Below are positions 5,139-29,917 of a stretch of 64,000 nt of DNA, one piece after another. A program made the position numbers and the translations under genes. Source of the DNA: Deltaproteobacteria bacterium. GTDB taxonomy: Bacteria; JAMCPX01. The notes beneath the pieces are model-generated. The model did no database searches, was not told where the DNA came from, and was given only the letters and a program-made list of their open reading frames with translations. The DNA lies in NCBI GenBank assembly GCA_023382265.1, contig JAMCPX010000008.1:84274-148273 (forward strand), read 5' to 3'. How positions within the stretch are numbered: the stretch's first letter is position 1; every line of letters starts with the position of its first letter.

Positions 5139-5186
5139 GCCACGTCATTCAAAATTCCGTATAATTCAATATCCGGAATTTTATTT

Positions 5187-9168: not shown

Positions 9169-9188
9169 TTTTCCACAGGTGTGGAAAA
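9169..9188. promoter_or_regulatory. Palindromic pair of DnaA boxes (TTTTCCACA gg TGTGGAAAA)
   Basis: TTTTCCACA fits the TTWTNCACA DnaA-box consensus, and two inverted copies sit about 85 nt upstream of the dnaA start. This is the expected autoregulatory or origin site. Confidence 0.5.
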
Positions 9189-9269
9189 AGTTGTGTGTAA
9201 CATTTTTTGATTTATTCTTTGATCTCAATAAGTTACAAACTGAATTATATGTTAATGATAGGTGAACGT

Positions 9270-10574: not shown

Positions 10575-10768
10575 TAAAGTTATTTAAAACTTGTTGATAA
10601 GTATATTGTAATTATATATATGTAATTACAAACAGAAGTGTTAACACATTTTAAACTGAATTGTTTTAAAAATTTTTTATAAAAATTAAATAGATAAAAA
10701 ATATGAGTAGATTTTTAACAAACTTACTACTATGATTATTATATATTATCAAATACTAGGAGATAGTT
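10575..10768. other. AT-rich dnaA-dnaN intergenic region, candidate oriC/DNA-unwinding element
   Basis: The region is very AT-rich. It contains TGTTGATAA (reverse complement TTATCAACA, a near DnaA box). Its position between dnaA and dnaN is the most common bacterial oriC location. Confidence 0.4.
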
Positions 10769-11866: not shown

Positions 11867-12028
11867 GATAGTTTTATGTAAAAATAGAGTACAGCATTAC
11901 TGAATATATCTAAGGTCCGGTTTTAGATGATTATGAGATTATATTAAGATACGCAATTTAAAAAAGTAACAAAAACCATCATCCACCCCAAAAGCGAAGC
12001 AGCCAAAAAATCCAAAAATTTAATGTGG

Positions 12029-16116: not shown

Positions 16117-16824
16117 ATGAATATTAAAAGGTATATAATTGCAGGATTGTTTACTACACTTATTACAACGACAGTACACGCCGGGCAAAATGCCTGTATT
16201 ACCTGCCACGAGTCTCTTGGTGGAACGATCGCCGCACCTGTTATACACTGGAAGGGCTCTATACACTCGCAAAACGGCGTAACATGTAATTCATGTCACG
16301 GTGGTAATCCTGATGTTAAAACAGGGAATATAAAATTTTTATCACCTGCTGAATTTAGTAATATACAGGCTCATGCAATGTCAAAAGCAAGCGGGTTTAT
16401 TGGTATACCATCAGGCAAAACGATGTTTGATATGTGTGGGAAATGTCATACGGATTCAGTAAATATGTATGCCAACAGTATAATGGGTGTCGCATATTTA
16501 GAAAATAAAGGCGGTCCATCATGCGCAACCTGTCATAATAGCCATGATAATGTTATTCCTGCTGTGCCGAAGGTATGTGAGCAATGCCATAAAGATATAA
16601 CGGGTTTTGATCAGATATCCCCTATGAATGTTTCCGATGCAACAATTCATGACCTTTCTATGCTAAGGATACATATCGAACAAAAGAAGGTGGAGGGTAA
16701 TAAGCTGCCCATATTCAGCAAGGAGCTCGCTTCATTTCAGATCGGATTTGTAGCATGGGGAGCAGTGCTTTTACTGTTGATAGTCTCGTTCATCATCTAT
16801 ATCGTACTCGAGAAGAGGAGTTAA
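16117..16824 (+). CDS. Pentaheme c-type cytochrome with C-terminal membrane anchor
   Basis: Has a signal peptide, five CxxCH motifs (CITCH, CNSCH, CGKCH, CATCH, CEQCH) and a C-terminal hydrophobic helix. It is the first gene of the bc-type complex operon. Confidence 0.85.
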   Translation: MNIKRYIIAGLFTTLITTTVHAGQNACITCHESLGGTIAAPVIHWKGSIHSQNGVTCNSCHGGNPDVKTGNIKFLSPAEFSNIQAHAMSKASGFIGIPSGKTMFDMCGKCHTDSVNMYANSIMGVAYLENKGGPSCATCHNSHDNVIPAVPKVCEQCHKDITGFDQISPMNVSDATIHDLSMLRIHIEQKKVEGNKLPIFSKELASFQIGFVAWGAVLLLLIVSFIIYIVLEKRS

Positions 16825-16825
16825 T

Positions 16826-17089
16826 ATGTCATTTGAGATCATTCACGAAAATAAACCATCATACTCTAAACCGGCAGGTGTTGTAATTGTATTCTTATCC
16901 CTCCTGCTTCTTGTTATGGCTGTTTTTTTTGCTTATCTGTTTATATCGGGCAAGGGTACCGACTATATAATGGGTACTATTCTTGCTTTTGAATTCTTAA
17001 TCTCGGGTATACTGCTGATTCTTTTTGCTAAATATTTTATTTCATTTAGGCACGTGGCAGAAGATCGTAAGGAGGAATTCTTATGGTAG
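16826..17089 (+). CDS. Small two-TM membrane protein (possible accessory subunit of the Rieske/cyt b complex)
   Basis: Is translationally coupled: its ATG 16826 lies directly after the upstream stop, with an AGAGGAG RBS. It is 87 aa with two hydrophobic helices. Confidence 0.5.
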   Translation: MSFEIIHENKPSYSKPAGVVIVFLSLLLLVMAVFFAYLFISGKGTDYIMGTILAFEFLISGILLILFAKYFISFRHVAEDRKEEFLW

Positions 17090-17703
17090 ATAACCATACA
17101 AATGATCCATTTGGCGACGGTAACAAAGGAATAACACGCAGGAAGTTTATTCTTAGTATAATACTTGTAGCAATAGCCGGTGCATTCGGATCCATATTAT
17201 CATTGCTTAAGGTTTTGTCACCTTCAAAAAAAGGTGCCGGATATGTATCAACCATAGTTTCGGGTGATAAGCTTTTATACGCGTCCGGGAATCAAGTTGG
17301 TTCTGTAATAAAAGCTTCTGCCATGGGGGTTGGGGACGCTGTGCTTGCATATCCTATTGGTAAAACATCTAACCCGGCAAACCTTGTGCAGCTGATTAAA
17401 TTAGAGGAAAAAGATTTTCAGCCTCCAACGGATATTAAGTTTACAGACAAGGGGTTTGTCGCGTACAGTGCAATATGTACACATCTTGGATGCACAGTTT
17501 CATGGGTTAACAATAAAAATGCGCCTACGCACTCTTACTCAGAGTGTTTTTGTCATAACAGTATTTTTAATCCGGAAAAGGGTGCAAAGGTTATTGGCGG
17601 TCCTGCACCTGTGCCGCTTGCACAAATAGGCATAAGGGTTGATAGCGATGATTCTTTAGTTTTTACTAGCGGTTTTAATGGTCCAATAGGACCACAGGTA
17701 TAA
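17083..17703 (+). CDS. Rieske [2Fe-2S] iron-sulfur subunit with twin-arginine signal
   Basis: Has an RRKFIL Tat motif plus TM anchor and the Rieske boxes CTHLGC and CFCHNS. An AAGGAGG RBS precedes it, and the start overlaps the upstream stop. Confidence 0.9.
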   Translation: MVDNHTNDPFGDGNKGITRRKFILSIILVAIAGAFGSILSLLKVLSPSKKGAGYVSTIVSGDKLLYASGNQVGSVIKASAMGVGDAVLAYPIGKTSNPANLVQLIKLEEKDFQPPTDIKFTDKGFVAYSAICTHLGCTVSWVNNKNAPTHSYSECFCHNSIFNPEKGAKVIGGPAPVPLAQIGIRVDSDDSLVFTSGFNGPIGPQV

Positions 17704-17724
17704 AAAAATAATGAGGTAACTGAT

Positions 17725-18984
17725 ATGCTTTTTGATTGGTTTGAACAAAGACTGGAACTTAAAAAATTTAAAGAAAAATATTTAACAAAAACTTTTCCAA
17801 CGCATCCTACATTTCTATTGGGAGAGATAGCTCTTTTTTCTTTTATAACCCTGGTTATAACAGGCATATTTCTCGGGTTCCTTTATGAGCCATCAACGAA
17901 GCTTACACCGCTTTTTAGTGCCATGGTTCCGGCAGCATATGCGAGTGTTGTTAAAATAGATCTTATTCCTCTCGGCATGATCATAAGGCGCATACATCAC
18001 TGGTCTGCAATGATTATGATAGCCTCTATTTTAGCACACTTATTAAGGGTTTATTTTACTTCCGCTTATAGGAAACCGCGAGAGATAAACTGGTTTATAG
18101 GACTTGCATTATTTGGTCTTTCGCTCTTTGCTGCATTTACAGGCTATCTCCTGCCATACAGCAATTTCTCTGTAACGGCTACATCTATTGGCTATTATAT
18201 AGCCAAGTCGGTACCATGGATTGGAGGCTGGGTATCAAGATTGGTATTTGCAGGAGAATTCCCTTCTGATGCAACTGTCCCAAGGTTCTTCTTTTTACAC
18301 GTCATGCTTATCCCCATACTTCTTTTAAGCCTTATAGGTTTGCACATGATGATCCTCGTAAAACAAAAGCATACAGAACCTCTTGCAAATAAATCCAAGA
18401 AAGAGGCAGAAAACGGTAAAAGACTTATTGGTATCCCAATCTGGCCTGAGCAAACCATCATCAGTGTATCTTTTTATTTCTTTTTACTGTTTATAATTAT
18501 ACTGATTGCGACCAACATACCTCTTAATCCTATAGAGGCATACGGCCCTCCTTCACCGGGAACGCCGGTTATGAGACCAGATTGGTATTTCTTAATGATC
18601 TATGGATTTTTAAAACTGATTCCGGGAGATTTGTCTTTTAGTATTCTCGGCGGCAAGTTCACACCGGAAACGATCGGCGGTGTACTATTTCCTTCTGTGC
18701 TAATATTGGCCATTATCCTTATTCCTTTTCTTGACAGAGCTAAAGAGCCTGTAAGCTACATAGAAAATCCATTACATAGGCCATTTATGACTTCAATAGG
18801 ACTTACAGGAATTACTTTTACATCAATGCTTGTAGTTGCAGGTTATATCGATGTGCTTCATATAAAGCCAAAAGCTATGCTTATATTGTTAGCAGTTACA
18901 AGTGTTTCAATGTGGGTAATCTCTTATTTCCTTTTAAGGTTTTACAATAATAGAAGAAATAACGGAGGGAACAATGTTAAATAA
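17725..18984 (+). CDS. Cytochrome b (long form, b6 plus subunit-IV-like fusion) of a bc-type complex
   Basis: Carries the RRIHHWSAMIMI...HLLR heme-ligand helix motifs, is 419 aa, and has at least 8 TM helices. Confidence 0.9.
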   Translation: MLFDWFEQRLELKKFKEKYLTKTFPTHPTFLLGEIALFSFITLVITGIFLGFLYEPSTKLTPLFSAMVPAAYASVVKIDLIPLGMIIRRIHHWSAMIMIASILAHLLRVYFTSAYRKPREINWFIGLALFGLSLFAAFTGYLLPYSNFSVTATSIGYYIAKSVPWIGGWVSRLVFAGEFPSDATVPRFFFLHVMLIPILLLSLIGLHMMILVKQKHTEPLANKSKKEAENGKRLIGIPIWPEQTIISVSFYFFLLFIIILIATNIPLNPIEAYGPPSPGTPVMRPDWYFLMIYGFLKLIPGDLSFSILGGKFTPETIGGVLFPSVLILAIILIPFLDRAKEPVSYIENPLHRPFMTSIGLTGITFTSMLVVAGYIDVLHIKPKAMLILLAVTSVSMWVISYFLLRFYNNRRNNGGNNVK

Positions 18985-19753
18985 ACCCAATATAGGTCTA
19001 TTTGTTCTATTAAGTATATGTGTGTCTTTATCAAACGCGGGCTACGCTTCACAGAACAATAATGCTCATGTAAAAAATACATGCGTTATATGCCACTCTA
19101 AAATATCGGGCGAAACCTTTGTAGGAATCAAATCGCACTCATGGGAGAATTCTATTCATCAAGAACACGGTATAACCTGTAATCAATGCCATGGTGGAAA
19201 CCCGAAGGCAATTACAACCGCAAAGGCACATATTGGTGTATTAGGTTCAAGCAATCCGGATAGCGGTGTGTATTATAAGAATATCCCAAAGACATGCGGC
19301 AGATGTCATAATAAAGAACTTTACAAGTATACGGAAAGCAATCATTTTAAAAAGCTTGAAGCAACTGGACAGGGGCCTAATTGTGTAACATGTCATGGTT
19401 CTATGGTAACAACAATATTAACGCCGGACGATATGGCAAACGTATGTGATAAATGTCATAACACAAGGATTGGTGTTTTTCCCTATATCCCCGAGAAGGC
19501 AAAGGCTGTCCTGATGTTGCTTGATACAGAAGGATCCCTTATCGCCGCAGATGAAAAGATATACAGCAGCAGTAAAGAAGATATGCAGATATTGCAAAAA
19601 GCGAAGAGCCAGTTTTCTAATGCGAAACTCGAATGGCATGCATTTGACCTGGATAAAATAACAAAATATCTTCAAAATACAGAAGAAATCCTAAAAGAGT
19701 TAAGCAAGCCTCCGGTACAAACAAGCCCGGTAAGCAAACAGCATAATAAATAA
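18974..19753 (+). CDS. Pentaheme c-type cytochrome
   Basis: Has a signal peptide and five CxxCH motifs (CVICH, CNQCH, CGRCH, CVTCH, CDKCH). Its start overlaps the cyt b stop, and a GGAGGG RBS is present. Confidence 0.85.
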   Translation: MLNKPNIGLFVLLSICVSLSNAGYASQNNNAHVKNTCVICHSKISGETFVGIKSHSWENSIHQEHGITCNQCHGGNPKAITTAKAHIGVLGSSNPDSGVYYKNIPKTCGRCHNKELYKYTESNHFKKLEATGQGPNCVTCHGSMVTTILTPDDMANVCDKCHNTRIGVFPYIPEKAKAVLMLLDTEGSLIAADEKIYSSSKEDMQILQKAKSQFSNAKLEWHAFDLDKITKYLQNTEEILKELSKPPVQTSPVSKQHNK

Positions 19754-19967: not shown

Positions 19968-19996
19968 TTGACTTATACGCAATGTGCTATCATAAT
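19968..19996 (+). promoter_or_regulatory. Promoter candidate for tRNA-Ser (TTGACT-N17-CATAAT)
   Basis: The -35 lies at 19968-19973 and the -10 at 19991-19996, 7 nt before the tRNA 5' end. Confidence 0.35.
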
Positions 19997-20003
19997 GCAT
20001 TGC

Positions 20004-20093
20004 GGAGAGGTACCGAAGTGGTCATAACGGGCCCGCCTCGAAAGCGGGTATCCTGGGCAACCGGGAACGTGGGTTCGAATCCCACCCTCTCCG
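20004..20093 (+). tRNA. tRNA-Ser (anticodon CGA)
   Basis: A cloverleaf is readable: acceptor GGAGAGG/CCTCTCC, D-arm, anticodon stem CCCGC/GCGGG with loop CUCGAAA (anticodon CGA), a long variable arm (class II), T-arm GTGGG-TTCGAAT-CCCAC and discriminator G. CCA is not encoded. Confidence 0.9.
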
Positions 20094-20237
20094 TTAATGA
20101 GGGATGGCACTGTTTAATCCAAAAAAAGTGCAGCAGGAAAGTTTGCCTTTTAATTTTTCAAATACATTATTCCGGCTGGCTTATTTTTACTTGAATTATC
20201 GGTGTTTTTATTCTATCCTCCTTAAAAGAGGTATTCT

Positions 20238-20663
20238 ATGGCAGAACAGATTTCCGTATTTATAGAAAATATTGCAGGCAGACTGAAAGAGATTACCGCT
20301 TTACTGAAAAATGCTAACATTGATATAAAGGCTATAACAATAGCGGATGCGCCGGATTTTGGGGTTGTGAGGATGATCGTTGATAACACAAAAAAGGCAT
20401 TGAGTCTGCTCAGAAGCGCAAAGTTTATAACAAGAACAACGGACGTTGTTGCAGTAAAGATCGAAAACAAGCCGGGCAGCCTGTTCAATGTGCTGAAAGT
20501 GCTTGAAAAATCGAACATCGATATAGAGTATCTTTACTCTTATACTGCAAGCCCACGTGAACATGCCATTCTCGTGTTCCGGTTTGATAATAATGAATCT
20601 GCCCAAAAGGCACTGTCGAATTCACAAATATCGATTTTATCTACAGAAGAACTGTTAAAATAA
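20238..20663 (+). CDS. Tandem ACT-domain protein
   Basis: Has two ~70 aa ACT-like repeats (..VFIENIAGRL..; ..VKIENKPGSLFNVLKVL..). Confidence 0.7.
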   Translation: MAEQISVFIENIAGRLKEITALLKNANIDIKAITIADAPDFGVVRMIVDNTKKALSLLRSAKFITRTTDVVAVKIENKPGSLFNVLKVLEKSNIDIEYLYSYTASPREHAILVFRFDNNESAQKALSNSQISILSTEELLK

Positions 20664-20734
20664 AAAGAGGAGGACTCTATGAAAAAATCCTTTCAAGATC
20701 GGGTCAGAGATCCTGAACCGGCAGGAAGCGTATT

Positions 20735-21565
20735 ATGACTACAAACAAAGAGGGCATGATAAAATCCAAAGACGGTACAGAGATATTTTACAAATACATA
20801 CTTACGGATAAGCCAAAGGCGTCCGTTTTCATTGTCCACGGACTTGGAGAGCACCTCGGCAGGTATGATAACGTAACAAACACACTGAAAGAGTATAACC
20901 TTTTCCTCCTGGATCTCAGGGGCCACGGCAAGTCTGGAGGCAAAAGGGGGCATGCTATGCGTTTTGATGAGTACCTCGATGATGTGGATGCACTCAGGAA
21001 CGAGGTGAAGGGGCTTGTCCAGGGGAAAACATTCATTCTTGGCCACAGTATGGGAGGGCTCATCGTTTTGCGGTATGCCATCTACAGGCCGGAAGGCATT
21101 TCAGGCGTTGTATCTTCGGGACCGCTGCTCGGGGTAAACGTGAAGGTACCGAAGATTAAAGATGTGATCGGCAGGCTTGTCGCCAATCTTGCTCCGGGCC
21201 TGTCCATGAGCAACGAGATAGATACGAGTAAACTGTCTCACGATAAGGCTGTGGTCGATGCATACAACAACGACCCCCTTGTCCATGCAAAGGTCAGTGC
21301 ACGATGGTATGTTGAAATGGTAAAGGCAATGGAGGATACAAACGCGAATGCAGGCAGATTGTCCATACCGTGCCTGATACTGCATGGCAGTGCCGATGCG
21401 CTCACAAACCCTGGATCGTCAAAGGAGTTTTTTGAAAAGGCCGGTTCCAAAGACAAAACGTACAAACTGTACGAGGGTTATTATCACGAGGTATATAACG
21501 AAGTCGAAAAGCAGAAGCCGCTTTCCGATATGGCGGAATGGCTGAACAAGAGAGCCCAGGAGTAA
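20735..21565 (+). CDS. Alpha/beta hydrolase, lysophospholipase/monoacylglycerol-lipase family
   Basis: Has HGLGEHLGRY and a GHSMGG nucleophile elbow, and is about 276 aa. GC is higher than in the flanking DNA. Confidence 0.8.
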   Translation: MTTNKEGMIKSKDGTEIFYKYILTDKPKASVFIVHGLGEHLGRYDNVTNTLKEYNLFLLDLRGHGKSGGKRGHAMRFDEYLDDVDALRNEVKGLVQGKTFILGHSMGGLIVLRYAIYRPEGISGVVSSGPLLGVNVKVPKIKDVIGRLVANLAPGLSMSNEIDTSKLSHDKAVVDAYNNDPLVHAKVSARWYVEMVKAMEDTNANAGRLSIPCLILHGSADALTNPGSSKEFFEKAGSKDKTYKLYEGYYHEVYNEVEKQKPLSDMAEWLNKRAQE

Positions 21566-21567
21566 CC

Positions 21568-23133
21568 ATGTACAAATACAAAACCATTAAAGAACTGATA
21601 TCTGGTCAGGCAAAAGCAAAGCCGGACAAGGTATTCATGTATTATAAGGATATGACAAAAACCCTGCGGGAGCTCGATGATATATCGAATAGAATAGGCA
21701 ATGGCTTGCTTTCGCTCGGCGTTAAAAAGGGTGACAGGGTAACAATGCTTATACCGAACAGGCCCGAGTTTATCTATGCATGGTTCTCATTGATGAAGAC
21801 AGGGGCTGTTATGGTACCGATCAATATCCAGTTCAAACCGGACGAAATAAAATACATTATCAATAATTCCGAAGCCGGCACGCTTATAACGACCGGTGCA
21901 TTCCAGGATACGGTCACAAAGATACGGGGCGAACTGCCGCAGCTGCAGCATATCATCGTCATCGATCCAAAAGATAAGACAGGCATAATTCCCTTTGAAG
22001 ATGTAGTATCGGCGAATCCGTCTGAGCCGGCCGTTGCTGTCGGTGAGTATGATTATGCATCATTCATCTATACCTCGGGCACCACGGGTTATCCCAAGGG
22101 AGTGATAGATACAAACCGCAATTACATCGCGAATGCCCACCAGATTGCCGAGGCCGCTGATTTTACCGAGAAAGACAGGGCTATGCTCATACTGCCATTG
22201 TTCCACTGCAATGCACAGGTCGTTACCGTGCTTGCACCGATGTACGCAGGTGCAAGTTTTGTTCTGATGGAAGGGTTCTCTCCAAAGGATTTTCTGCCGG
22301 CAATCGATAAGTACAGGCCCTCGACATTCAGCGGGGTGCCGACTGTCTATGCAATTCTAAACAGTCTGCCCGATGCCGGGAAGTACGACCTTTCCTCCCT
22401 GAGGTTTGTTATATGCGGAGCGGCGCCCATGCCGGTCGAGGTATTCAACACGTTCGAGGAAAAGTACAAGGCGTTTATACTCGAAGGCTACGGTCTTTCA
22501 GAGGCAACCTGTGCCAGCATCATTAACCCGTTAAAGGGTAAGAGGAAAATAGGCTCTATCGGCAAGCCTCTCAACGGCCAGGATGCAAGGATCCTCGATG
22601 AAAACAACAAAGAACTGCCGCAGGGACAGATTGGAGAGATCTGCATCAAGGGCGATGTGGTCATGGCAGGTTATTACAAAAACCCCGAGGCAACGGCAGC
22701 CACGATAAAGGACGGATGGCTGCATACCGGTGATCTCGGTTACATGGACGAGGAAGGATACATCTACATCATAGGCAGAAAAAAAGAGATGATCATACGC
22801 GGCGGGGAAAACATCTATCCCAAAGAGATAGAAGAGGTTTTGTACAAGTATCAGAAAGTACAGGATGCGGCTGTCGTCGGCATACCTGATCCCAAATGGG
22901 GAGAAGAGGTGTTCGGGTTTATAGTGCCGAAACAGGGCATGCAAATAGCAGAGCAGGATCTTGTGGACTTTTTAAAAGAAAAGATAGCCAATTACAAGAT
23001 ACCGAAGAAGTTTGTTATTACGGATGCCTTTCCCAAGACAGCAACAGGCAAGATACAAAAGAATAAGATCATCGGGCAGTATGCACAAGAACACGGGATC
23101 GATCTTTCAAAGAAGTTTGCCGCAAAAAAATAA
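21568..23133 (+). CDS. Long-chain fatty acid-CoA ligase (AMP-binding enzyme, FadD-like)
   Basis: Has the AMP-binding motif I (SFIYTSGTTGYPKGV), motif II (GYGLSE) and the C-terminal lysine region. The start was set at ATG 21568, which follows an AGGAG RBS. Confidence 0.85.
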   Translation: MYKYKTIKELISGQAKAKPDKVFMYYKDMTKTLRELDDISNRIGNGLLSLGVKKGDRVTMLIPNRPEFIYAWFSLMKTGAVMVPINIQFKPDEIKYIINNSEAGTLITTGAFQDTVTKIRGELPQLQHIIVIDPKDKTGIIPFEDVVSANPSEPAVAVGEYDYASFIYTSGTTGYPKGVIDTNRNYIANAHQIAEAADFTEKDRAMLILPLFHCNAQVVTVLAPMYAGASFVLMEGFSPKDFLPAIDKYRPSTFSGVPTVYAILNSLPDAGKYDLSSLRFVICGAAPMPVEVFNTFEEKYKAFILEGYGLSEATCASIINPLKGKRKIGSIGKPLNGQDARILDENNKELPQGQIGEICIKGDVVMAGYYKNPEATAATIKDGWLHTGDLGYMDEEGYIYIIGRKKEMIIRGGENIYPKEIEEVLYKYQKVQDAAVVGIPDPKWGEEVFGFIVPKQGMQIAEQDLVDFLKEKIANYKIPKKFVITDAFPKTATGKIQKNKIIGQYAQEHGIDLSKKFAAKK

Positions 23134-23177
23134 GCATACAGCTACTTTCAATACGCAAGAGAAAATTGAGAAGTAAG

Positions 23178-23828
23178 ATGTCGTGGAATAAGGATTATGA
23201 AAAGTCGGGTAGGATATGGGGAGAAAATCCAGGAGAACTTGCAAAAGCCGCAGTCCGATATCTGAAAAAAAACAAGTCCGCCAGCGAAAGCCTTAATCTT
23301 CTGGACATTGGTTGCGGCTACGGAAGGGACGCATTCTATCTTTCGGACAATCTTCAATGCAATACTCTTGGAATAGATGTCTCGGAAAAGGCAACAGAGA
23401 TTGCAATGAGTACGGTCATAAAAACAAAAAAAAACAATATCATGTTTCAATCCATTGATTTTGCATCACTGGGAGGAGACAAATATGATATTGTGTTTGC
23501 CTCGAACGTATATCAGATCCTGCATCCGCATGAAAGGGAGGCATTCAGGGTTGCGGCAAAAAAAGCATTAAGGCCGGAAGGTCTGCTGTTCCTTGCTACC
23601 CTTTCCACAAGGGATCCAGAGCATTACGGTAAAGGCATGAAGGTTGAAGGAGAAGAAAACTCTTTTAAAGACGAGAAGTACCTCCATTTTTGTACGAAGG
23701 AAGAGCTCATGCAAGACTTCGGATTTCTGAACATAAAAGAGCTCTATGAGCAGCAGTACACCGAGCCCCGCTCAACCGGAGAAACCCACCACCACGTATC
23801 ATGGATACTGATAGGGTTTGCATCTTAA
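23178..23828 (+). CDS. Class I SAM-dependent methyltransferase
   Basis: Has motif I (LDIGCGYGRDAF) and later motifs. The ORF-track start at 23166 is a TTG, so ATG 23178 is preferred. Confidence 0.7.
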   Translation: MSWNKDYEKSGRIWGENPGELAKAAVRYLKKNKSASESLNLLDIGCGYGRDAFYLSDNLQCNTLGIDVSEKATEIAMSTVIKTKKNNIMFQSIDFASLGGDKYDIVFASNVYQILHPHEREAFRVAAKKALRPEGLLFLATLSTRDPEHYGKGMKVEGEENSFKDEKYLHFCTKEELMQDFGFLNIKELYEQQYTEPRSTGETHHHVSWILIGFAS

Positions 23829-24211
23829 CCAATGTCCAGACTTTGTCATCAAAAAACGCAATAGAAAGTTGACCATAGGATGAACAGTTCCTTGGTGAAC
23901 GATCTTGCCGTATACCTTGCAATAGTATATGAATAAAACGATGCATCTGTCCCGGTCTTCGAAATGAGCCTCGATTACAGCTTCAACGACTGGCATCCGA
24001 TCTGATTCCGGGAAACGACCTTTACCTCATCTGATATAAGAGCATGGGCCGTACCCATTCCCCTGCTGTACCGACCCTTGACCACTACCTCCCCATGATT
24101 TACACAATGGCACTGCGGGAGAAGCATGAACCCCTCACGTTCATATATGAAGGATTCCAGCACGCCTCGATCTAAAGAGGTCCTTCAAGATCGATGTATA
24201 AACCAGCATAG

Positions 24212-24379
24212 GTACAGCAGCAAATATTATCTCCTAATGCAGCTATTATACCGGACAGATTGATGAAAGAACTTAAAACTATTACTCCGGAGAAATCAAA
24301 GACCGCCTTGATTTCCGAAGCTCTGGAAGAATATATTAATAAAAAACGCAGAGAGAAATTAGTGTCCCTCAAGGGATAA
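24212..24379 (+). pseudogene. Truncated VapB-type antitoxin fragment
   Basis: The short ORF ends ...KTITPEKSKTALISEALEEYINKKRREKL. This resembles the C-terminal helix of VapB/DUF2191-type antitoxins, but the N-terminal DNA-binding part is missing. Confidence 0.4.
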
Positions 24380-24452
24380 ATCAATATAGAATACGACTGG
24401 AAAATCGAAGAGGGAAGGGAACTAATGACTGCGAAAGAAAAAGAGAAGGGAT

Positions 24453-24831
24453 ATGGCAGAAAGCATAATCGCTGACACGTGTGTCTGGATCGCATATTTC
24501 AGGGGAGAGCCGGCACTATCCAGAAAACTGGAGACCTTGAAAAAAGGGATGCCGTCTCTATTTGTGGAATTGTTTTATACTAGTTGCTCCAAGGGTTAAA
24601 GGACGAAAATGAAAAGAGAGTAATAGGTGACGCTTTCAAAGGACTCCGCTATATTGAAATGCACGAGGATACATGGAAGGGGCTGGCGTATTGACGAAAG
24701 ATATGAAGAGAACCGGTATCACACTGCCGCCATCGGATATTTTTCTCGCTCAGCTTTCAATAGAAAACAACTGCAAGATTTTCACAATAGACAGTTATTT
24801 TAAGAGAATTCCGGGAATAAATCTCTTATAA
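24453..24831 (+). pseudogene. VapC (PIN-domain) toxin gene disrupted by frameshifts
   Basis: The N-terminus MAESIIADTCVWIAYFRGE is the PIN DTSVWI motif. The frame hits a stop after ~48 aa. The PIN C-terminus (ITLPPSDIFLAQLSIENNCKIFTIDSYF) resumes in a different frame. Confidence 0.6.
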
Positions 24832-24943
24832 GTCAATGGCCACCTTGACATCGGAACAGTACGTTCCTATTCAGTGTTTCAAAAGGTATAAAGCGTATAT
24901 ACAACCCATACTCTTTCTCCTGTTAGAATGTCCCTTTTACCGT

Positions 24944-26344
24944 TTACACGCAGCAGGAAAGCCCGGATATGTCCTTGACAAACGAGAGAGCGCAGGTCTT
25001 GATCGCCTCTGAAAGTGTTGGGAATACGGGCGTTGAGTCGATCACATCGTAGATAGTGTTCTTGTTCTTTATAAGTATCATAGCCTGTGCAATCAGTTCG
25101 CCTGCATTGGGTGCGAGTATGTGGACACCGAGGATCTGGCCTGACTTCGGATGAACAGCCATCTTGATCAAACCTTCTGTTCTATTGAGGATAATCGCCT
25201 TGGGAATATTCTTTAACTCAACGCTTCTGCATGCACAGGTGTTCATCCTGTTCATCTGCTCCTGTTCTATAAGCCCCGCACCTGCAAGCTGCGGATCGGT
25301 AAAGATGGTATACGGCACGGCATCGTAATCCATCGTGAGCTTTGAGCCTGCCAATGCATTCTCAGCGGCAATACTGCCTTCCCTGCCGGCTGTTGTCTCA
25401 AGTCTGGATGGCTGGTTTATCACATCCCCAGCTGCAAACACATTTTCATTCTTTGTTGTGAGATATTGATTCACGATAACCGCATGACGCCTGTCTGTTT
25501 CGACGCCTGATTTATCAAGATCAAGGTCTTTTGTGTTTGGTGTCTTGCCGGTTGCAAGCAGTATCTCGTCACCGCTGACCTCATATTCTGTTTTGTCAAT
25601 ACGATACATTACGACCTTCTTCTTGCCCTTTTTGTATGCCCTTTTCACCTTTGCGCGGGTTTTCATTGTTATGCCTTCTTCTGTAAGCAATGATTCAAGC
25701 CTGTTGACGACCTCTTCTTCACCGGGCTGGAATATCGATGGTTGAAATTCGAGGATCGTTACCTTCGAGCCAAAGCGTGCATACATCTGGGCAAACTCAA
25801 GTCCGAGAGGGCCCGCGCCGACAATGATCAATTCCAATGGCAACACCTTTAACTTCAGGGCCCTTGTGTGTGTGATAAACCCTGTCTCTTTTATACCTTC
25901 TATAGGCGGGACGCTCGCGGTAGAGCCTGTCGCTATAATGATCTTTTTTGCACGGAAGGTTTTACCATCAGCCCTGACCTCGTCTTTTGACGTAAAAGAT
26001 GCCCTTCCCTGAAGAACGGTTACATGCTCGAGACGCTTCAGCACCTTGTCATACTTTTCTTTCCGCATGATCGCAACAAGGTCCAGCTCATGCTGGATGA
26101 CCTCCTTAAAATCAAAGGATTTCACGTTAAGCTCAATCCCCGGAATACCATGATGCCGTGCAAGATGCAATAATTCGCCTGCATACAGCAGTGCCTTCGA
26201 AGGCACGCAGCCGACATTTACACACGTGCCGCCGAGCGGCATACCGTCGTTTATCATGAGCGTTTTAGCATTAAGCTCATTTGCCCTGATTGCCGCTGCA
26301 AAACCGCCTGCACCCGCGCCTATTACAATTAAATCATAATCCAT
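24944..26344 (-). CDS. merA: Mercuric reductase MerA (core enzyme, no N-terminal HMA/NmerA domain)
   Basis: Has an FAD-binding N-terminus, the redox-active GGTCVNVGCVPSK motif, and a C-terminal ...KDISGLSCCV carrying the MerA-specific vicinal Cys pair. It lies in a higher-GC segment. Confidence 0.8.
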   Translation of the reverse strand: MDYDLIVIGAGAGGFAAAIRANELNAKTLMINDGMPLGGTCVNVGCVPSKALLYAGELLHLARHHGIPGIELNVKSFDFKEVIQHELDLVAIMRKEKYDKVLKRLEHVTVLQGRASFTSKDEVRADGKTFRAKKIIIATGSTASVPPIEGIKETGFITHTRALKLKVLPLELIIVGAGPLGLEFAQMYARFGSKVTILEFQPSIFQPGEEEVVNRLESLLTEEGITMKTRAKVKRAYKKGKKKVVMYRIDKTEYEVSGDEILLATGKTPNTKDLDLDKSGVETDRRHAVIVNQYLTTKNENVFAAGDVINQPSRLETTAGREGSIAAENALAGSKLTMDYDAVPYTIFTDPQLAGAGLIEQEQMNRMNTCACRSVELKNIPKAIILNRTEGLIKMAVHPKSGQILGVHILAPNAGELIAQAMILIKNKNTIYDVIDSTPVFPTLSEAIKTCALSFVKDISGLSCCV

Positions 26345-26522
26345 ATTGCCTCCTTTTAAAGAGTAGAAAGTGCTCTTCAGAGCGCTCTCGACTTGTAGTA
26401 TGTATTAATACTTTAGCTGTTTTTCAGTAACTATGCAAATCTCGTCGATATGCAGTACACTTATCATTTTTGTCTTCTTTCAAAATTCTTTGTCTCTGTA
26501 TAGTCCTCATTGTTTTTATTCA

Positions 26523-26672
26523 TCGCTCTTCACCCTCCATTGCCTCAAGGATGTGGCATTCGCTTACAGGACCCTTTCCTATGCATGCCAGGATCAACTT
26601 TGCCAGCGCCTTCTTCATCCTCTGGAGCGTCCGGATCTTTGCTTCGATGTCTTCTATTTTTGCTTCCGTGAG
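26523..26672 (-). pseudogene. MerR-family regulator C-terminal fragment (dimerisation helix plus metal-binding Cys loop)
   Basis: LTEAKIEDIEAKIRTLQRMKKALAKLILACIGKGPVSECHILEAMEGEER* matches the MerR coiled-coil and Cys-X8-Cys metal loop. No HTH-encoding N-terminus was found in any frame upstream. It sits in frame directly after the TGA of the small membrane ORF. Confidence 0.55.
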
Positions 26673-26945
26673 TCAGTGTACTGTGCCAAAGAGAGCCCTG
26701 TAACCTACAGAAGCCCTGCCTATCCCCATACTCCATAAAAATGCATAGATGACGGCAAAGACAATGCCCAACATGAAATGCATCATTAAGCCAAGTGGTA
26801 TAACTCCTTCCTTCTTGAATATGGAACCGGGTAATCCCACAATTTCCATCTTCGTCATACCCATCTTGGATGCCGCAACCATTACCATAGACATTACAAT
26901 TGTTTTGACTATGCCGGCAACAACTGCTCCTATTATGTTTATCAT
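26673..26945 (-). CDS. Small hydrophobic membrane protein (unknown)
   Basis: Is 90 aa with about 3 TM segments, no Cys pairs (so not MerT/MerP) and unknown function. It may be a gene remnant. Confidence 0.35.
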   Translation of the reverse strand: MINIIGAVVAGIVKTIVMSMVMVAASKMGMTKMEIVGLPGSIFKKEGVIPLGLMMHFMLGIVFAVIYAFLWSMGIGRASVGYRALFGTVH

Positions 26946-27136
26946 ATGCTACCTCTTTATCGCCGTGCAGTTCCTTTATCTCTTCAGGATACCCCATCCT
27001 GAACAGGTTTCCCATATACAACCATTGAAGTTGCAGCTCCGGCGGACATTGAACCCGCGGCCTCGCCGTTTTCCTTTACACCCTGTTTGTGCCGCACAAG
27101 CATGTTGATCAAAGATTGTAGTGAATTAACTGGTCT

Positions 27137-29917
27137 CTATTTCTTAACAACCTTGGATAGGCAAGATTTCTTATGCAGTTTTTTGCAGCATATTGGAACA
27201 GCAAGAAAGAGCAGCAGGAAGAGTGCATCCCATGGATCATAGTTCTGAGTATAAGATATACTACAAGAAAAGCCCCTGTCAGGATAGAGCTTGCCTTGAA
27301 CAGGGTTTCTAAATACACCGCCCGAGATCACAAGTGCATAAGGTTGATCATTAAGCGGAGTCATGCCTTTTGGTATATTGTAGCCTTTCACTATAGCTTT
27401 ATATATGCCAACCTGCGGATGCGCAATTTCTATTTGTTGTATATTGTTTGTGTGATCGGGTTGATTAAGGCCATTTGGATAATAAATCCGGCTATCAGGT
27501 GATGCAATGGTAACATCCAATTGATTAACAATATCTCTGCTGCTTCCAGGAGAAGCAGGATAATCGCTCCATACAAGTGTCGTAATAAGGGGATCACCGT
27601 TAAGCACCTCAAATTGAAGTACTCGGTGTGCCCCTGTTGCTAAACCATTACCTTCTTTATAGTCGAATACGTGTATATGCCAGTTTTGTGAAGGTATTAA
27701 AAGTCTTGTTAGATCAATCCTTCCCCAGCCTTCAATATTGTTTGGCCTATACGGAACTTCAAGGTATTTGCCTGTTCCGTACTGCCCCGGATAAATATCC
27801 TTTGCAGTGTTTATCATCACGGCCTTAACAAGTGCGGCAGAAGGGGATGCATACCCGTTTTTTAATAACCACTGTCTTACAATGGCAGCACTACCAGCTG
27901 CAACCGGAGTTGCCATACTTGTTCCACCAAGAAACATGTACCTTTGATCCTCTAATGTTGTAGAGGATATACCCCAGAATGATTGCGAGCCCCAGCCACC
28001 TGTAACCGTATCGATTGATATATCATCAATCATAACATAATCAGATTTATTGCCGGAATCGGACACAGTAAGTCTTAACCCAAACCCATTAAGATTATCT
28101 GAGCCTGTATCGGTAAAATATGATAAAATGGGGTAGCTTGCATTATACCATCCTGCTGTTGATGTAAAAGTATCAAGGAGAATCCATGCACTCCGTGAAG
28201 GATCAAAGACCTCAAAACTCAATACCCCGGATAAAAGCCTTGTATTAACATAAAAATTAAGTTGTGCATGATGTGTTATGCTTGCAATGGAAAGTGATGT
28301 AAAAAACTGTGCATAAGATAAAACGGGAGATGTCATTGAGGTGATACCCAGCGCATAAGTGCTTTTATACCCATTAGGATAAATCATAAATCCTTGAACT
28401 GTACCTGTTATTGAAAATCCCTGAAGTCCGTTTTCAAAATCATCGGTATAGAAAATAGATTGAGACTTTGCCGACAGGATAAAAGTTCCAGGTGCTACAA
28501 GATCGGGTTTTATTCTGCCGTCATTAGCAGGACCCCTGCTTGAAAATGCCGCCATTCCATCCGGATTGTTGGCAAGCAAATCAGTGCTTATCGGCGGGAC
28601 AGGAAAACTATTGGGCCATGCAATGCCGTATGTTAAAGGTATGGAAGGCCTGAAGCTCTCCGTCGCACCAATGGTAAGACAATCCTTTGCCAGTGCAGGT
28701 GAAGAAATGCTTGATAGATCCACCACGCCGTCATTGTCAGCATCCGTTCCGTCATTGCCGGATGCAAATAAAATTAGCATGTCGGGGTGTTCCCATATAA
28801 ATTTATCAAGACTCCATGCAAGAATATCATAGGATATGATATTGGAGGTGCCCCAGCTGTCGCTGTGTATACGTGGTGCGAGAGTGTCGTTGTATGCCTG
28901 ATTAAATAAATTACCGATTACTGCAGGAATACCGTTAAAAATTCCCTGCCTATTCATTACATCTTGAAAAACAAGTTTATTGACTCCGTATGCGATCCCG
29001 TTATGGGAGATTCCAGCAAAGGGTGTTTGCTGATCATAACCGAGTATAGTATCAGCTACGTGTGTTCCATGCCCTACATCATCCTGGAAACTACCCGTAT
29101 CGGGATAACCATCTGCATATATGCTTACTTCTTTATTTAAAAACGCGGGATGAAAGTCTGTACCTGTTATATAACCGTAAAATCTATTATCCGCAGAATC
29201 ATAATTTAAGCCCGCATTACCCGTATCAAGACCGGTATCAGCTATTGCAACCGCCTGACCCGCGCCGTTATAACCGTTGATGTTTTGCTGTATAACGTCT
29301 GTAGAGAGTCTTACACCGGCAATCCATGATGCTACATCGTTAAACAATACAAAATGCGGATACGGTTGAATCCATCTAATATCGTTTGATCCTGCAAGGC
29401 TTATTATCTCATTACGTGTTAGTTTTGCATGTATAATACTATTATTTTTAGAGTGTTCAGTACTAATTACTGTCCCGCCTTCAATCATAATATCATTTAC
29501 GAGCTTCTCTCCCGATATTTGAGGGAAGCCAAGTATAAGCACATTGTAAGGAGTAGAAATATCATGGATGCGCATCATTGCAGATAATGTTGATTCGATT
29601 TTATATGGAGGTAAATATTGCCATACTCCTGTTAACCGGTTTTTTATAGAATTTAAAGTTTCCCTATTAGCTAACACCAAAAAGCTGTTTTCAGGAATAT
29701 AACCTGCAATGATATTACCGTTCTGCTTTAGAATGGTAATATCATTAGCGTATACGTGATCTTTAAATTGAATAATATACGGTTGCTTTTGATCAGACAG
29801 TGTAACATAATTTTTGTAATTCACAAGATATTTGTTGAATATAACCGGCTTTGCTTCAGCCCCGCAGCCTGTAAGGAGAAATGAAAACAAAAACCATAAA
29901 CCTACACGTATTAACAT
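27137..29917 (-). CDS. Subtilisin-like serine protease (peptidase S8) lipoprotein with large C-terminal extension and C-terminal hydrophobic/basic tail
   Basis: Has a lipoprotein signal (LLTGC), the catalytic regions DTG.., HGTHVADTILG and GTSMATPVAAG, about 450 aa of downstream beta-rich domains, and a C-terminus ...ALFLLLFLAVPICCKKLHKKSCLSKVVKK. Confidence 0.85.
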   Translation of the reverse strand: MLIRVGLWFLFSFLLTGCGAEAKPVIFNKYLVNYKNYVTLSDQKQPYIIQFKDHVYANDITILKQNGNIIAGYIPENSFLVLANRETLNSIKNRLTGVWQYLPPYKIESTLSAMMRIHDISTPYNVLILGFPQISGEKLVNDIMIEGGTVISTEHSKNNSIIHAKLTRNEIISLAGSNDIRWIQPYPHFVLFNDVASWIAGVRLSTDVIQQNINGYNGAGQAVAIADTGLDTGNAGLNYDSADNRFYGYITGTDFHPAFLNKEVSIYADGYPDTGSFQDDVGHGTHVADTILGYDQQTPFAGISHNGIAYGVNKLVFQDVMNRQGIFNGIPAVIGNLFNQAYNDTLAPRIHSDSWGTSNIISYDILAWSLDKFIWEHPDMLILFASGNDGTDADNDGVVDLSSISSPALAKDCLTIGATESFRPSIPLTYGIAWPNSFPVPPISTDLLANNPDGMAAFSSRGPANDGRIKPDLVAPGTFILSAKSQSIFYTDDFENGLQGFSITGTVQGFMIYPNGYKSTYALGITSMTSPVLSYAQFFTSLSIASITHHAQLNFYVNTRLLSGVLSFEVFDPSRSAWILLDTFTSTAGWYNASYPILSYFTDTGSDNLNGFGLRLTVSDSGNKSDYVMIDDISIDTVTGGWGSQSFWGISSTTLEDQRYMFLGGTSMATPVAAGSAAIVRQWLLKNGYASPSAALVKAVMINTAKDIYPGQYGTGKYLEVPYRPNNIEGWGRIDLTRLLIPSQNWHIHVFDYKEGNGLATGAHRVLQFEVLNGDPLITTLVWSDYPASPGSSRDIVNQLDVTIASPDSRIYYPNGLNQPDHTNNIQQIEIAHPQVGIYKAIVKGYNIPKGMTPLNDQPYALVISGGVFRNPVQGKLYPDRGFSCSISYTQNYDPWDALFLLLFLAVPICCKKLHKKSCLSKVVKK

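What the first reader, a model, noticed from the sequence alone, without database searches (positions are those of the whole stretch)
20094..27136. Higher-GC block next to tRNA-Ser(CGA) with a lipid-metabolism cassette, decayed TA and mercury genes; candidate genomic-island remnant
Starting about 600 nt after the tRNA, nucleotide composition shifts visibly to GC-richer codons (compare 20700-23800 with 27200-29900). The block encodes a lysophospholipase-like hydrolase, an acyl-CoA synthetase, a SAM methyltransferase, a frameshifted vapBC, a core merA and a merR fragment. It ends at the low-GC subtilase gene. tRNA-adjacent position plus compositional contrast plus pseudogenes is the signature of an old integrated element that has lost its integrase.
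Basis: partly seen in the sequence, partly recalled or inferred. Interest (0 to 1): 0.6.

Follow-up and report, generated by a model that had tools for sequence, protein, structure and literature searches.

The report
Imported gene patches, not tRNA island
The GC-richer stretch next to the tRNA is real and is DNA brought in from GC-richer related bacteria, but it looks like several ordinary recombination and gene-transfer events plus decaying gene debris, not a mobile island inserted at the tRNA.

Summary
Window 20735-27136 has 45.9% GC against 38.4% for the rest. Its four intact genes have GC3 of 0.46-0.57 against 0.35 +/- 0.05 in 45 other genes. Only they, and a second patch at 38.3-42.9 kb, fit the codon usage of GC-richer relatives better than the host's. 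Gene calls are right with corrections: merA is intact, under purifying selection, and passes the MerA equivalog model. The merR piece is a 49-residue C-terminal fragment, vapC has two frameshifts, and there is also a YgiD-like dioxygenase remnant.

The island reading is only partly supported. No integrase or transposase remnant was found, and no copy of the tRNA 3' end. The gene next to the tRNA (ACT) has host-like composition. ACT-hydrolase-ligase-methyltransferase is a conserved module in at least six related species, where its GC always matches the host.

In this lineage hydrolase and ligase look like alleles imported from a GC-richer relative. The closest ligase allele (88% nt) and merA allele (91% nt) lie on 48% and 45.5% GC contigs, at unlinked loci. 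Two near-identical strains differ by a 245-nt conversion tract in the ligase and a 382-nt deletion in the debris.

This is ordinary genome mosaicism, of low interest.

The parts
20003..20094 (+). tRNA-Ser(CGA), intact, no encoded CCA. A promoter-like site lies at 19968-19996.
   Evidence: ARAGORN; Rfam RF00005 at 58 bits; promoter scan.
20122..20139 (+). Left copy of an 18-nt imperfect direct repeat (AAAAAAGTGCAGCAGGAA), 28 nt after the tRNA. Unexplained.
   Evidence: only two matches with up to 3 mismatches in 64 kb, against 0.08 expected; empirical chance of such a pairing at the right boundary is about 0.002-0.01.
20238..20663 (+). ACT-domain-pair protein (141 aa), first gene of the conserved four-gene module. 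Composition is host-like to ambiguous (GC3 0.39, codon log-likelihood ratio +0.016).
   Evidence: Pfam ACT_8 at 4e-29; composition; the same gene precedes the hydrolase in relatives.
20735..21565 (+). Alpha/beta hydrolase of the Hydrolase_4 family, lysophospholipase or monoacylglycerol-lipase-like, with a GHSMGG nucleophile motif. GC3 0.57, foreign codon usage.
   Evidence: Pfam PF12146 at 4e-76; weak match to lysophospholipase L2; composition.
21568..23133 (+). Long-chain-fatty-acid--CoA ligase. This is the 521-aa form starting MYKYK; an upstream ATG at 21538 gives 531 aa. GC3 0.56, foreign codon usage. The closest allele lies on a 48% GC contig.
   Evidence: NF004837 at 534 bits against a 476 cut-off; homologues; 87.8% nt identity to L064; dN/dS 0.06.
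21912..22155 (+). Gene-conversion tract inside the ligase. It carries 55 of the 75 mismatches between the window and the otherwise 99.6% identical strain L001. In the tract the window is 94.7% identical to the GC-rich allele L064, and L001 is 77%.
23178..23828 (+). Class I SAM-dependent methyltransferase (216 aa), last gene of the module. GC3 0.46, mildly foreign.
   Evidence: Pfam Methyltransf_25/23/11; same position in relative JBMFUY; composition.
24044..24175 (+). C-terminal remnant of a YgiD/LigB-type extradiol dioxygenase (pseudogene debris).
   Evidence: Matches residues 229-262 of E. coli YgiD (2PW6), E=0.003. Further decayed remains upstream (about 23870-24040) were read by eye only.
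24260..24379 (+). Short vapB-like ribbon-helix-helix antitoxin gene (39 aa), possibly truncated at the N terminus.
   Evidence: Pfam VapB_antitoxin at 3e-4, below the cut-off.
24453..24831 (+). vapC (PIN) pseudogene split over three reading frames by two frameshifts. The same frameshifts occur in an independent assembly.
   Evidence: ORFs; weak PIN hits to the N- and C-terminal pieces; no L001 difference between window 23145 and 24820, so L001 is identical across both frameshift sites.
24944..26344 (-). Intact core mercuric reductase MerA (466 aa, no NmerA domain). GC3 0.53. The closest allele (91% nt) lies on a 45.5% GC contig.
   Evidence: TIGR02053 at 505 bits against 454; best PDB hit 4YWO, with CVNVGC, the KY tyrosine, F at position 605 and a C-terminal CC; dS 0.30 and dN/dS 0.14 against L072.
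26520..26669 (-). C-terminal 49-residue fragment of a MerR-family metal regulator (dimerisation helix and Cys loop). The DNA-binding domain is missing.
   Evidence: NCBIfam ZntR 1e-7, CueR 2e-6, MerR 2e-4, all matching profile positions about 85-131.
26510..26891 (.). 382-nt segment present in the window and replaced by 7 nt in strain L001. The deletion removes the merR fragment and part of the membrane-gene fragment.
26673..26945 (-). Truncated membrane-protein gene, possibly DUF6789-like (N-terminal half only).
   Evidence: Pfam DUF6789 at 4e-4, below the cut-off, profile positions 3-72 of 144.
27203..27220 (+). Right copy of the 18-nt imperfect direct repeat (2 mismatches here, 1 in L001). 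It lies inside the last 28 codons of the subtilase gene.
27137..29917 (-). Host-composition subtilase (926 aa), the right flank of the block.
   Evidence: Pfam Peptidase_S8; GC3 0.33 and codon log-likelihood ratio +0.10.

Best explanation
The block is a composite left by several ordinary events in a low-GC (about 38%) uncultivated bacterium. None of them needs the tRNA.

**(a) The lipid module is native; two or three of its genes are imported alleles.** ACT-hydrolase-ligase-methyltransferase is an old, lineage-wide module. It probably frees a fatty acid from a lysolipid or monoacylglycerol and activates it to acyl-CoA; this function is inferred from family membership only. In the ancestor shared with a sister species, the hydrolase and ligase, and probably the methyltransferase, were overwritten by alleles from a GC-richer related lineage. 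The route was homologous recombination within the module. ACT remained native.

**(b) merA came in separately.** The core merA came from another GC-richer (about 46%) relative. It is kept intact by selection for reducing Hg(II) to Hg(0). Expression without its regulator is inferred, as described for merA-only loci of thermophiles.

**(c) The rest is debris.** A YgiD-like dioxygenase, vapBC, a MerR-family regulator and a membrane gene are decaying through frameshifts and deletions. This decay is still going on between strains.

**Shown:** the composition and codon signal, module conservation, the closest alleles and their host composition, the conversion tract, the deletion, and MerA family membership. 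**Inferred:** the direction and number of transfers, the enzymatic roles, and merA expression.
For: **Composition and codon usage**
- Searches show the foreign signal in the four block genes.

**The module is conserved, and its GC3 matches the host in each relative**
- JBMFUY-type MAGs carry ACT-hyd-lig-MT at GC3 0.31-0.41.
- JAJYJX carries ACT-TAtT-hyd-lig at 0.49-0.55.
- L069 carries ACT-hyd-lig at 0.75-0.78.
- JBBIVV carries hyd-lig.
- Only in the window is the module heterogeneous: ACT 0.39, hyd 0.57, lig 0.56, MT 0.46.

**Closest alleles sit in GC-richer genomes**
- The closest ligase allele, L064, lies on a 48% GC contig with uniform GC3 of 0.55-0.62. Homology ends 6 nt after the stop codon.
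- The closest merA allele, L072, lies on a 45.5% GC contig where merA is compositionally typical. Homology is limited to the ORF plus 12 nt.
- In those contigs the ligase and merA have different neighbours.

**ACT and the ligase have discordant histories**
- Between the window's sister (the 22,671-nt contig) and the JGI 22,562-nt lineage, ACT is 80.9% identical but the ligase 95.2%.
- Between the 22,562-nt and 58,820-nt lineages, ACT is 95.7% identical but the ligase 90.6%.
- The ACT-to-ligase divergence ratio is 4.0 for the first pair, against 0.5-1.4 for other representative pairs read from the matrix.

**Recombination and decay are seen directly**
- Two strains that are 99.6% identical differ by a 245-nt tract inside the ligase. 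In that tract the window is 94.7% identical to L064.
- The same two strains differ by a 382-nt deletion in the debris zone.

**Assembly support and context**
- The junctions are reproduced in independent assemblies.
- MEGAHIT contigs from two samples end at 20670 and 20726, at the ACT/hydrolase boundary. Another ends at 22154, the end of the conversion tract.
- A second patch of the same composition at 38.3-42.9 kb has no tRNA.
- merA signatures and selection.
- merA-only, constitutively expressed loci are known in thermophiles (PMC3466566).
Against: - **Weak call for ACT.** ACT's codon score is only weakly host-like: +0.016 per codon, about 2 nats over 141 codons. ACT could have come in with the rest.
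- **Pairing by contig length.** The ACT/ligase discordance pairs proteins by matching contig lengths, which is an inference. It could also reflect a burst of ACT evolution in the stem lineage.
- **Unexplained repeat.** An 18-nt imperfect direct repeat brackets the whole segment at 20122 and 27203. It is unlikely by chance (p about 0.002-0.01) and this model does not explain it.
- **Variable region after a similar tRNA.** Another organism with a 91%-identical tRNA-Ser(CGA) carries a ParE-like toxin and a type I restriction-modification system right after the tRNA. The position may be a variable region more generally.
- **No close relative at this locus.** No genome close enough to show an empty site could be retrieved. 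The 54 relatives with the neighbouring cytochrome bc operon have at most about 80% identity in cytochrome b and share no synteny downstream.
- **Donor taxonomy unknown.** The relationship of the donor contigs to this organism outside the block genes is not known.
Confidence: 0.62

Rival explanations
1. One 7.1-kb element, running from ACT through merA and the membrane-gene fragment, inserted immediately downstream of tRNA-Ser. The insertion was by site-specific recombination at an 18-nt core and replaced the last 22 codons of the subtilase gene. The element later lost its integrase and decayed.
For: - The 18-nt direct repeat lies at 20122-20139 and 27203-27220, with 16/18 matches in the window and 17/18 in L001.
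- It is the only such pair in 64 kb. Its position at both ends of the block has an empirical chance of about 0.002-0.01.
- Foreign composition and pseudogenes lie inside the pair.
- The conserved module sits in a different neighbourhood in every species examined.
- Defence and toxin genes follow a 91%-identical tRNA in another organism.
Against: - No integrase, recombinase, transposase or relaxase remnant was found.
- The repeat does not overlap the tRNA, and I noticed it only after seeing its position.
- ACT, the first gene inside the pair, is not foreign in composition.
- The closest ligase and merA alleles are unlinked in their GC-richer hosts, and homology stops at the gene ends.
- The module is a conserved chromosomal feature of the family, with host-matched composition in each relative.
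- No similarity to plasmids or phages beyond the AMP-binding motif.
- Every assembly of this species retrieved at the locus and extending beyond ACT continues into the block.
Confidence: 0.2
2. The genes are native and vertically inherited. Their higher GC reflects gene-specific constraints such as expression level or amino-acid content, not transfer.
For: - The module is conserved across the family, and protein identities to relatives (78-86%) are comparable to or above those of cytochrome b (76-79%).
Against: - In a low-GC relative (JBMFUY) the orthologous hydrolase and ligase have GC3 of 0.31-0.35, so the genes do not intrinsically demand high GC.
- The excess is at third codon positions.
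- Housekeeping genes in the window, such as dnaN and the fatty-acid-synthesis genes, are low in GC3.
- The nearest alleles, at 88-91% nt identity, sit in genomes about 8-10 GC points richer.
Confidence: 0.06
3. The contig is an assembly or binning chimera that joins a low-GC organism to a co-occurring GC-richer relative.
For: - Related lineages co-occur in the same samples.
- Short contigs break around the tRNA and just after ACT.
Against: - The tRNA-ACT-hydrolase junction is identical in the window, GCA_021793435.1, an ENA MEGAHIT contig (18601-22154) and a Logan contig (20066-21265).
- The merA-subtilase junction is present in the window and in L001.
- The block genes are only 88-91% identical to the actual sequences of the GC-richer lineages, so they are not those organisms' reads.
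Confidence: 0.03

Closest known systems
tRNA-associated genomic islands (pathogenicity or fitness islands and integrative elements with tyrosine integrases)
   Same: - Atypical base composition.
- Position near a tRNA gene.
- Accessory-type cargo: metal resistance and a toxin-antitoxin pair.
- Pseudogenes.
   Different: - No integrase or remnant of one.
- No direct repeat of the tRNA 3' end.
- A host-composition gene lies between the tRNA and the foreign DNA.
- Half of the 'cargo' is a module conserved in all relatives.
- The components have separate closest alleles at unlinked loci.
Allelic replacement and gene-conversion tracts from homologous recombination between diverged lineages (mosaic genes)
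   Same: - A compositional break inside a conserved operon.
- A 245-nt tract that switches allele type between strains 99.6% identical.
- Homology to the donor alleles confined to the genes.
- Discordant ACT and ligase divergence.
   Different: - The donor and recipient differ by about 8-10 GC points and about 12% in nucleotide sequence. That is far for efficient homologous recombination.
- The merA import has no homologous flanks in the data at hand, so another route is needed for it.
Minimal merA-only mercury-resistance loci of thermophilic Bacteria and Archaea (Boyd and Barkay 2012, PMC3466566; Christakis et al. 2021, PMC8261052)
   Same: - Core MerA without the NmerA domain.
- No merT, merP or merB nearby.
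- No functional regulator.
- Best solved-structure match is the archaeal Metallosphaera sedula MerA, with Phe at position 605.
- Some close relatives are MAGs labelled as hydrothermal or sediment-derived in their record titles. The habitat of this organism itself was not checked.
   Different: - A co-directional MerR-family regulator was once present and is now a 49-residue stump, deleted altogether in a sister strain.
- merA is compositionally foreign both here and in low-GC relatives (GC3 0.475 against 0.27-0.36).
VapBC type II toxin-antitoxin pairs
   Same: - A small ribbon-helix-helix gene followed by a PIN-domain gene in the usual order.
   Different: - The PIN gene carries two frameshifts in both assemblies.
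- The Pfam hits are below the cut-offs.
- The pair is not functional.

Membership tests
tRNA-integrated genomic island | Base composition and codon usage differ from the host genome | tested here: met
   GC3 z-scores are 2.1-4.1. The codon log-likelihood ratio is negative only for the block genes and the second patch.
tRNA-integrated genomic island | Insertion at the 3' end of a tRNA gene, flanked by direct repeats that copy part of the tRNA | tested here: not met
   No match to the 23-nt tRNA 3' end with up to 3 mismatches in 64 kb. blastn-short finds only chance matches of 14 nt or less. The only candidate repeat (18 nt, 20122/27203) does not overlap the tRNA.
tRNA-integrated genomic island | Integrase or other mobility gene, or a remnant of one | tested here: not met
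   Pfam and NCBIfam scans covered the called ORFs and most stop-to-stop fragments of 30 aa or more in 23829-24943 and 26345-27136. None gave a recombinase, transposase or relaxase hit.
tRNA-integrated genomic island | Present in some and absent from other close relatives at the same locus | tested here: inconclusive
   Every assembly of the species retrieved at this locus and extending past ACT continues into the block. A sister species has the four-gene module, but its flanks could not be fetched. The 54 more distant relatives share no synteny beyond the cytochrome bc operon.
Mercuric reductase MerA (TIGR02053; criteria in PMC8261052) | Score above the curated equivalog cut-off | tested here: met
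   505 bits against a 454.45 cut-off, over the full length.
Mercuric reductase MerA (TIGR02053; criteria in PMC8261052) | Redox-active Cys pair, C-terminal vicinal Cys pair, Tyr264, and Tyr or Phe at position 605 (Bacillus numbering) | tested here: met
   Alignments to 4YWO, 5X1Y and 1ZK7 show CVNVGC, the KY tyrosine, F aligned to Y605 (the archaeal-type state) and a terminal SCCV. The criteria are quoted.
Complete mer operon | Intact regulator (MerR or ArsR type) and Hg transport genes (merT, merP or merC) | tested here: not met
   Only a 49-residue MerR-family C-terminal fragment is present. No MerT, MerP or HMA hit appears in any ORF of the block.
VapBC toxin-antitoxin | Intact PIN-domain toxin and cognate antitoxin | tested here: not met
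   The PIN gene is split over three frames (24453-24599, 24584-24694, 24673-24831). Pfam E-values are 0.04-0.08, and VapB scores 3e-4, below the cut-off.
Long-chain-fatty-acid--CoA ligase (NF004837 subfamily) | Score above the curated cut-off, with AMP-binding and AMP-binding_C domains | tested here: met
   534 bits against 476. Pfam PF00501 at 2e-95 and PF13193 at 2e-22. Substrate chain length was not tested.

The most novel reading that the evidence does not exclude
The ACT-hydrolase-ligase-methyltransferase module, with trailing cargo, is itself a small mobile cassette. It moves between genomes of this family by recombination at a short core of about 18 nt (AAAAAAGTGCAGCAGGAA) and has no integrase of its own. 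This would explain three things: it sits in a different neighbourhood in every species, a 15/18 version of the core lies 55 nt upstream of the hydrolase in JAJYJX, and the window copy is bracketed by the core next to a tRNA.
Probability: 0.08. Interest if true: 0.45.

Novelty: new member of a known kind. Interest (0 to 1): 0.2.

Why it matters
Mainly as a caution. Being near a tRNA, having atypical GC and holding pseudogenes is not enough to call an integrated island. Here the compositional break falls inside a conserved operon and is better explained by allele import between related lineages of different GC content.

The locus could serve as a small natural example of recombination across a gap of about 8-10 GC points, since a conversion tract can be seen between two strains. 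It also shows a core merA kept intact while its regulator decays, which fits the regulator-free mer loci described for thermophiles.

None of this changes current understanding.

Tried and rejected
**Searches for an att site**
- tRNA 3'-end pattern with mismatches, blastn-short of the whole tRNA, and a general repeat scan. Nothing derived from the tRNA was found. The one 18-nt pair was kept as unexplained.

**Synteny and empty-site tests**
- Synteny through the neighbouring cytochrome bc operon in 54 species representatives. The relatives are too distant: none has the tRNA or any block gene downstream.
- Exact tRNA pattern in JGI metagenomes. One hit, in an unrelated context (L078), which gives no empty site.

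**Mobile-element tests**
- Similarity to plasmids and phages. Only the generic AMP-binding motif matched.
- Integrase or transposase remnants in the ORFs and fragments of the two debris zones that were scanned. None found.
- Rfam at permissive threshold, and promoter and terminator scans. Nothing beyond the tRNA and its promoter-like site.

**Alternative explanations considered and rejected**
- Assembly chimera. Rejected because the junctions recur in independent assemblies and the block differs by 9-12% from the GC-rich lineages' own sequences.
- Gene-intrinsic high GC. Rejected because the orthologues in a low-GC relative are low in GC.

- I could not fetch the sister-species contig (22,671 nt) or the JGI contigs.

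Full report
**What the window is.** The 64-kb window has 40% GC. It comes from an uncultivated bacterium whose own proteins are labelled 'Deltaproteobacteria bacterium' in NCBI. The closest relatives of its cytochrome bc operon are MAGs labelled Nitrospirota or Deltaproteobacteria. A near-identical contig exists in GCA_021793435.1 (L001, 99.6% identity), and pieces occur in ENA and Logan assemblies. dnaA and dnaN lie at 9.2-11.9 kb. The only tRNA is tRNA-Ser(CGA) at 20003-20094.

- GC is 0.459 for 20735-27136 against 0.384 for the rest of the window without the two GC-rich patches.
- GC3 of the four intact genes is 0.570 (hydrolase), 0.558 (ligase), 0.462 (methyltransferase) and 0.527 (merA). 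The 45 other genes have 0.351 +/- 0.053 with a maximum of 0.450.
- The flanking subtilase has 0.328, and the ACT gene between the tRNA and the hydrolase has 0.394.
- I built a codon log-likelihood ratio of host genes against genes from GC-richer relatives. It is positive for all 45 background genes. It is negative only for the four block genes and for two genes at 38276-42180. The host model was trained on the background genes, so only the block values are held out.

**Gene content.**

| Coordinates | Strand | Feature |
|---|---|---|
| 20238-20663 | + | ACT-domain pair protein |
| 20735-21565 | + | Hydrolase_4 alpha/beta hydrolase |
| 21568-23133 | + | long-chain-fatty-acid--CoA ligase, above the NF004837 cut-off |
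| 23178-23828 | + | class I SAM methyltransferase |
| 24044-24175 | + | YgiD/LigB-type dioxygenase C-terminal remnant (E=0.003 to 2PW6) |
| 24260-24379 | + | short vapB-like gene |
| 24453-24831 | + | PIN gene in three frames |
| 24944-26344 | - | core merA |
| 26520-26669 | - | 49-residue MerR-family C-terminal fragment |
| 26673-26945 | - | truncated membrane gene, weakly DUF6789-like |

The PIN frameshifts are the same in L001, so they are not sequencing errors.

merA is intact.
- It scores 505 bits on TIGR02053 against a cut-off of 454.
- It has the CVNVGC redox pair, the conserved tyrosine, Phe at position 605 (the archaeal-type state) and the terminal Cys-Cys. These are the criteria used by Christakis et al. 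(PMC8261052).
- Against its closest allele dN/dS is 0.14.

**Is it an island at the tRNA?**
- The tRNA 3' end is not repeated anywhere in the window.
- No integrase, transposase or relaxase signal appears in any ORF or fragment scanned.
- There is no similarity to plasmids or phages.
- The 54 species that share the adjacent cytochrome bc operon (cytochrome b 80% identical or less) have neither the tRNA nor any block gene downstream. They are too distant to provide an empty site.
- A search of JGI metagenomes for the tRNA found one other organism (L078, tRNA 91% identical). There the tRNA is followed by a ParE-like toxin and a type I restriction-modification system. That is weak support for the position being variable.

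**The lipid 'cassette' is a conserved module.** Homologues of the ligase at 81-86% identity come from other species of the family. Their contigs show the same gene order:
- ACT-hydrolase-ligase-methyltransferase in the JBMFUY-type MAGs;
- ACT-hydrolase-ligase in L069;
- ACT-TAtT-hydrolase-ligase-thiolase in JAJYJX;
- hydrolase-ligase-thiolase in JBBIVV.

A sister species (a 22,671-nt contig) has all four genes at 90-96% identity.

In each relative the module's GC3 equals that of its host genome: 0.31-0.41 in JBMFUY (39% GC contig), 0.49-0.55 in JAJYJX (46% GC contig), and 0.75-0.78 in L069 (56% GC contig). Only in the window is the module heterogeneous. ACT is host-like and hydrolase and ligase are GC-rich. 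The compositional break therefore lies inside a conserved operon.

**Where the GC-rich alleles come from.**
- The closest ligase sequence with DNA in hand is L064. It is 87.8% nt identical over 21230-23139. It sits on a 48% GC contig whose other genes have GC3 of 0.55-0.62, and homology ends 6 nt after the stop codon.
- The closest merA is L072. It is 91% nt identical, with dS 0.30. It sits on a 45.5% GC contig where merA is compositionally typical, and homology is confined to the ORF plus 12 nt.
- In these contigs the ligase and merA have different neighbours, so they are unlinked there.
- In low-GC relatives (L070, L071, 37.5% GC) merA is also GC-elevated: 0.475 against 0.27-0.36 for its neighbours.

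I paired ACT and ligase proteins that share a contig length. This pairing is an inference, but it is verified for JAJYJX and JBMFUY. It gives a clear discordance:

| Pair of lineages | ACT identity | Ligase identity |
|---|---|---|
| sister species vs JGI 22,562-nt lineage | 80.9% | 95.2% |
| JGI 22,562-nt vs 58,820-nt lineage | 95.7% | 90.6% |

The ratio of ACT to ligase divergence is 4.0 for the first pair. It is 0.5-1.4 for other representative pairs, computed by hand from the identities. Either the hydrolase-ligase pair of this lineage was imported from a 22,562-like lineage, or ACT underwent a burst of change in the stem lineage. The composition data favour import.

**Recombination and decay seen directly.**
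- The window and L001 differ at 75 positions in 18.8 kb. Of these, 55 fall in a 245-nt tract (21912-22155) inside the ligase.
- In that tract the window is 94.7% identical to L064, against 86% outside it. L001 is 77% identical and lower in GC.
- A second, smaller cluster of differences lies at the merA 3' end.
- L001 lacks 382 nt (26510-26891). This removes the merR fragment and part of the membrane-gene fragment. The ORF continuity in the window shows that L001 carries the deletion.
- Contig ends in other assemblies fall at the tRNA, at 20670 and 20726 (the ACT/hydrolase junction, in two samples) and at 22154 (the end of the tract). This is consistent with strain variation at these points.

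**Loose end.** An 18-nt imperfect direct repeat lies 28 nt after the tRNA (20122-20139) and inside the last 28 codons of the subtilase (27203-27220). It has 2 mismatches in the window and 1 in L001.
- It is the only pair in the 64 kb with up to 3 mismatches, against 0.08 expected.
- An empirical estimate of such a coincidence at the right boundary is about 0.002-0.01.
- I noticed it only after seeing its position. It would enclose ACT and part of a host gene, and it does not overlap the tRNA.

I keep it as the main support for the rival island reading.

**Conclusion.** The foreign origin of most of 20735-27136 is well supported. A tRNA-targeted island that lost its integrase is not.

The best account is a mosaic:
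- a native, conserved lipid module partly overwritten by alleles from a GC-richer relative;
- a separately acquired core merA kept by selection, in line with the regulator-free mer loci of thermophiles (PMC3466566);
- decaying accessory genes between them.

A second patch of the same composition at 38.3-42.9 kb holds a GT2 glycosyltransferase and an MMPL/RND-methyltransferase fusion, with no tRNA nearby. It shows that such patches are a general feature of this genome. This is ordinary genome dynamics. I score interest at 0.2.

Noticed in passing
window 38276-42865: A second GC-rich patch (50.6% GC, GC3 0.55-0.58) with the same foreign codon signature as the block. It encodes a GT2 glycosyltransferase and a 1036-aa MMPL/RND-type transporter fused to a SAM methyltransferase. 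It is flanked by an MFS transporter gene and a DivIVA-domain gene, and no tRNA is nearby.
   Followed up: partly
window 4335-7450: Three genes, including an alpha/beta hydrolase, have intermediate GC3 (0.43-0.45) and a codon log-likelihood ratio near zero. This may be an older, partly ameliorated import.
   Followed up: no
window 8900-11900: dnaA (about 9267-10574) and dnaN (10769-11866) have very low GC3 (0.25 and 0.20). Cumulative GC skew reaches its minimum near 9 kb. The replication origin is probably here, about 10 kb from the block.
   Followed up: no
window 20122-20139 and 27203-27220: An 18-nt imperfect direct repeat brackets the ACT-to-merA segment. It is the only such pair in the window and has 17/18 matches in strain L001. 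A 15/18 version lies 55 nt upstream of the hydrolase in relative JAJYJX (L059 9126).
   Followed up: partly
window 24944-26344: This bacterial MerA carries Phe at the position where bacterial MerA usually has Tyr605 (the archaeal-type state). Its best solved-structure match is Metallosphaera sedula MerA. Beyond its own 80-92% clade, the named hits are mostly Patescibacteria MerAs at about 62-67% identity.
   Followed up: partly
L078 4634-9430 (JABEBX010022065.1): A different organism with a 91%-identical tRNA-Ser(CGA) carries a ParE-like toxin and a type I restriction-modification system (HsdM, a YhcG nuclease, HsdS) directly downstream of the tRNA.
   Followed up: partly
L016 6079-12784 (BDTX01000006.1): The cytochrome bc operon appears twice in tandem with identical scores. 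A tRNA-Ser(CGA) lies 1.5 kb upstream. This may be an assembly artefact or a real duplication.
   Followed up: no
window 16117-19753 and loci L003-L056: An operon of a multihaem cytochrome, a small DUF7318 protein, a Rieske protein, cytochrome b and a second multihaem cytochrome. It is conserved in order in most of the 54 species representatives where the contig extends far enough, but flanking synteny is lost.
   Followed up: partly
L070/L071 8001-9401: In low-GC relatives (37.5% GC) merA is also GC-elevated (GC3 0.475 against 0.27-0.36). It lies at the very end of the contigs, which suggests that merA is a recurrent import in this family.
   Followed up: partly
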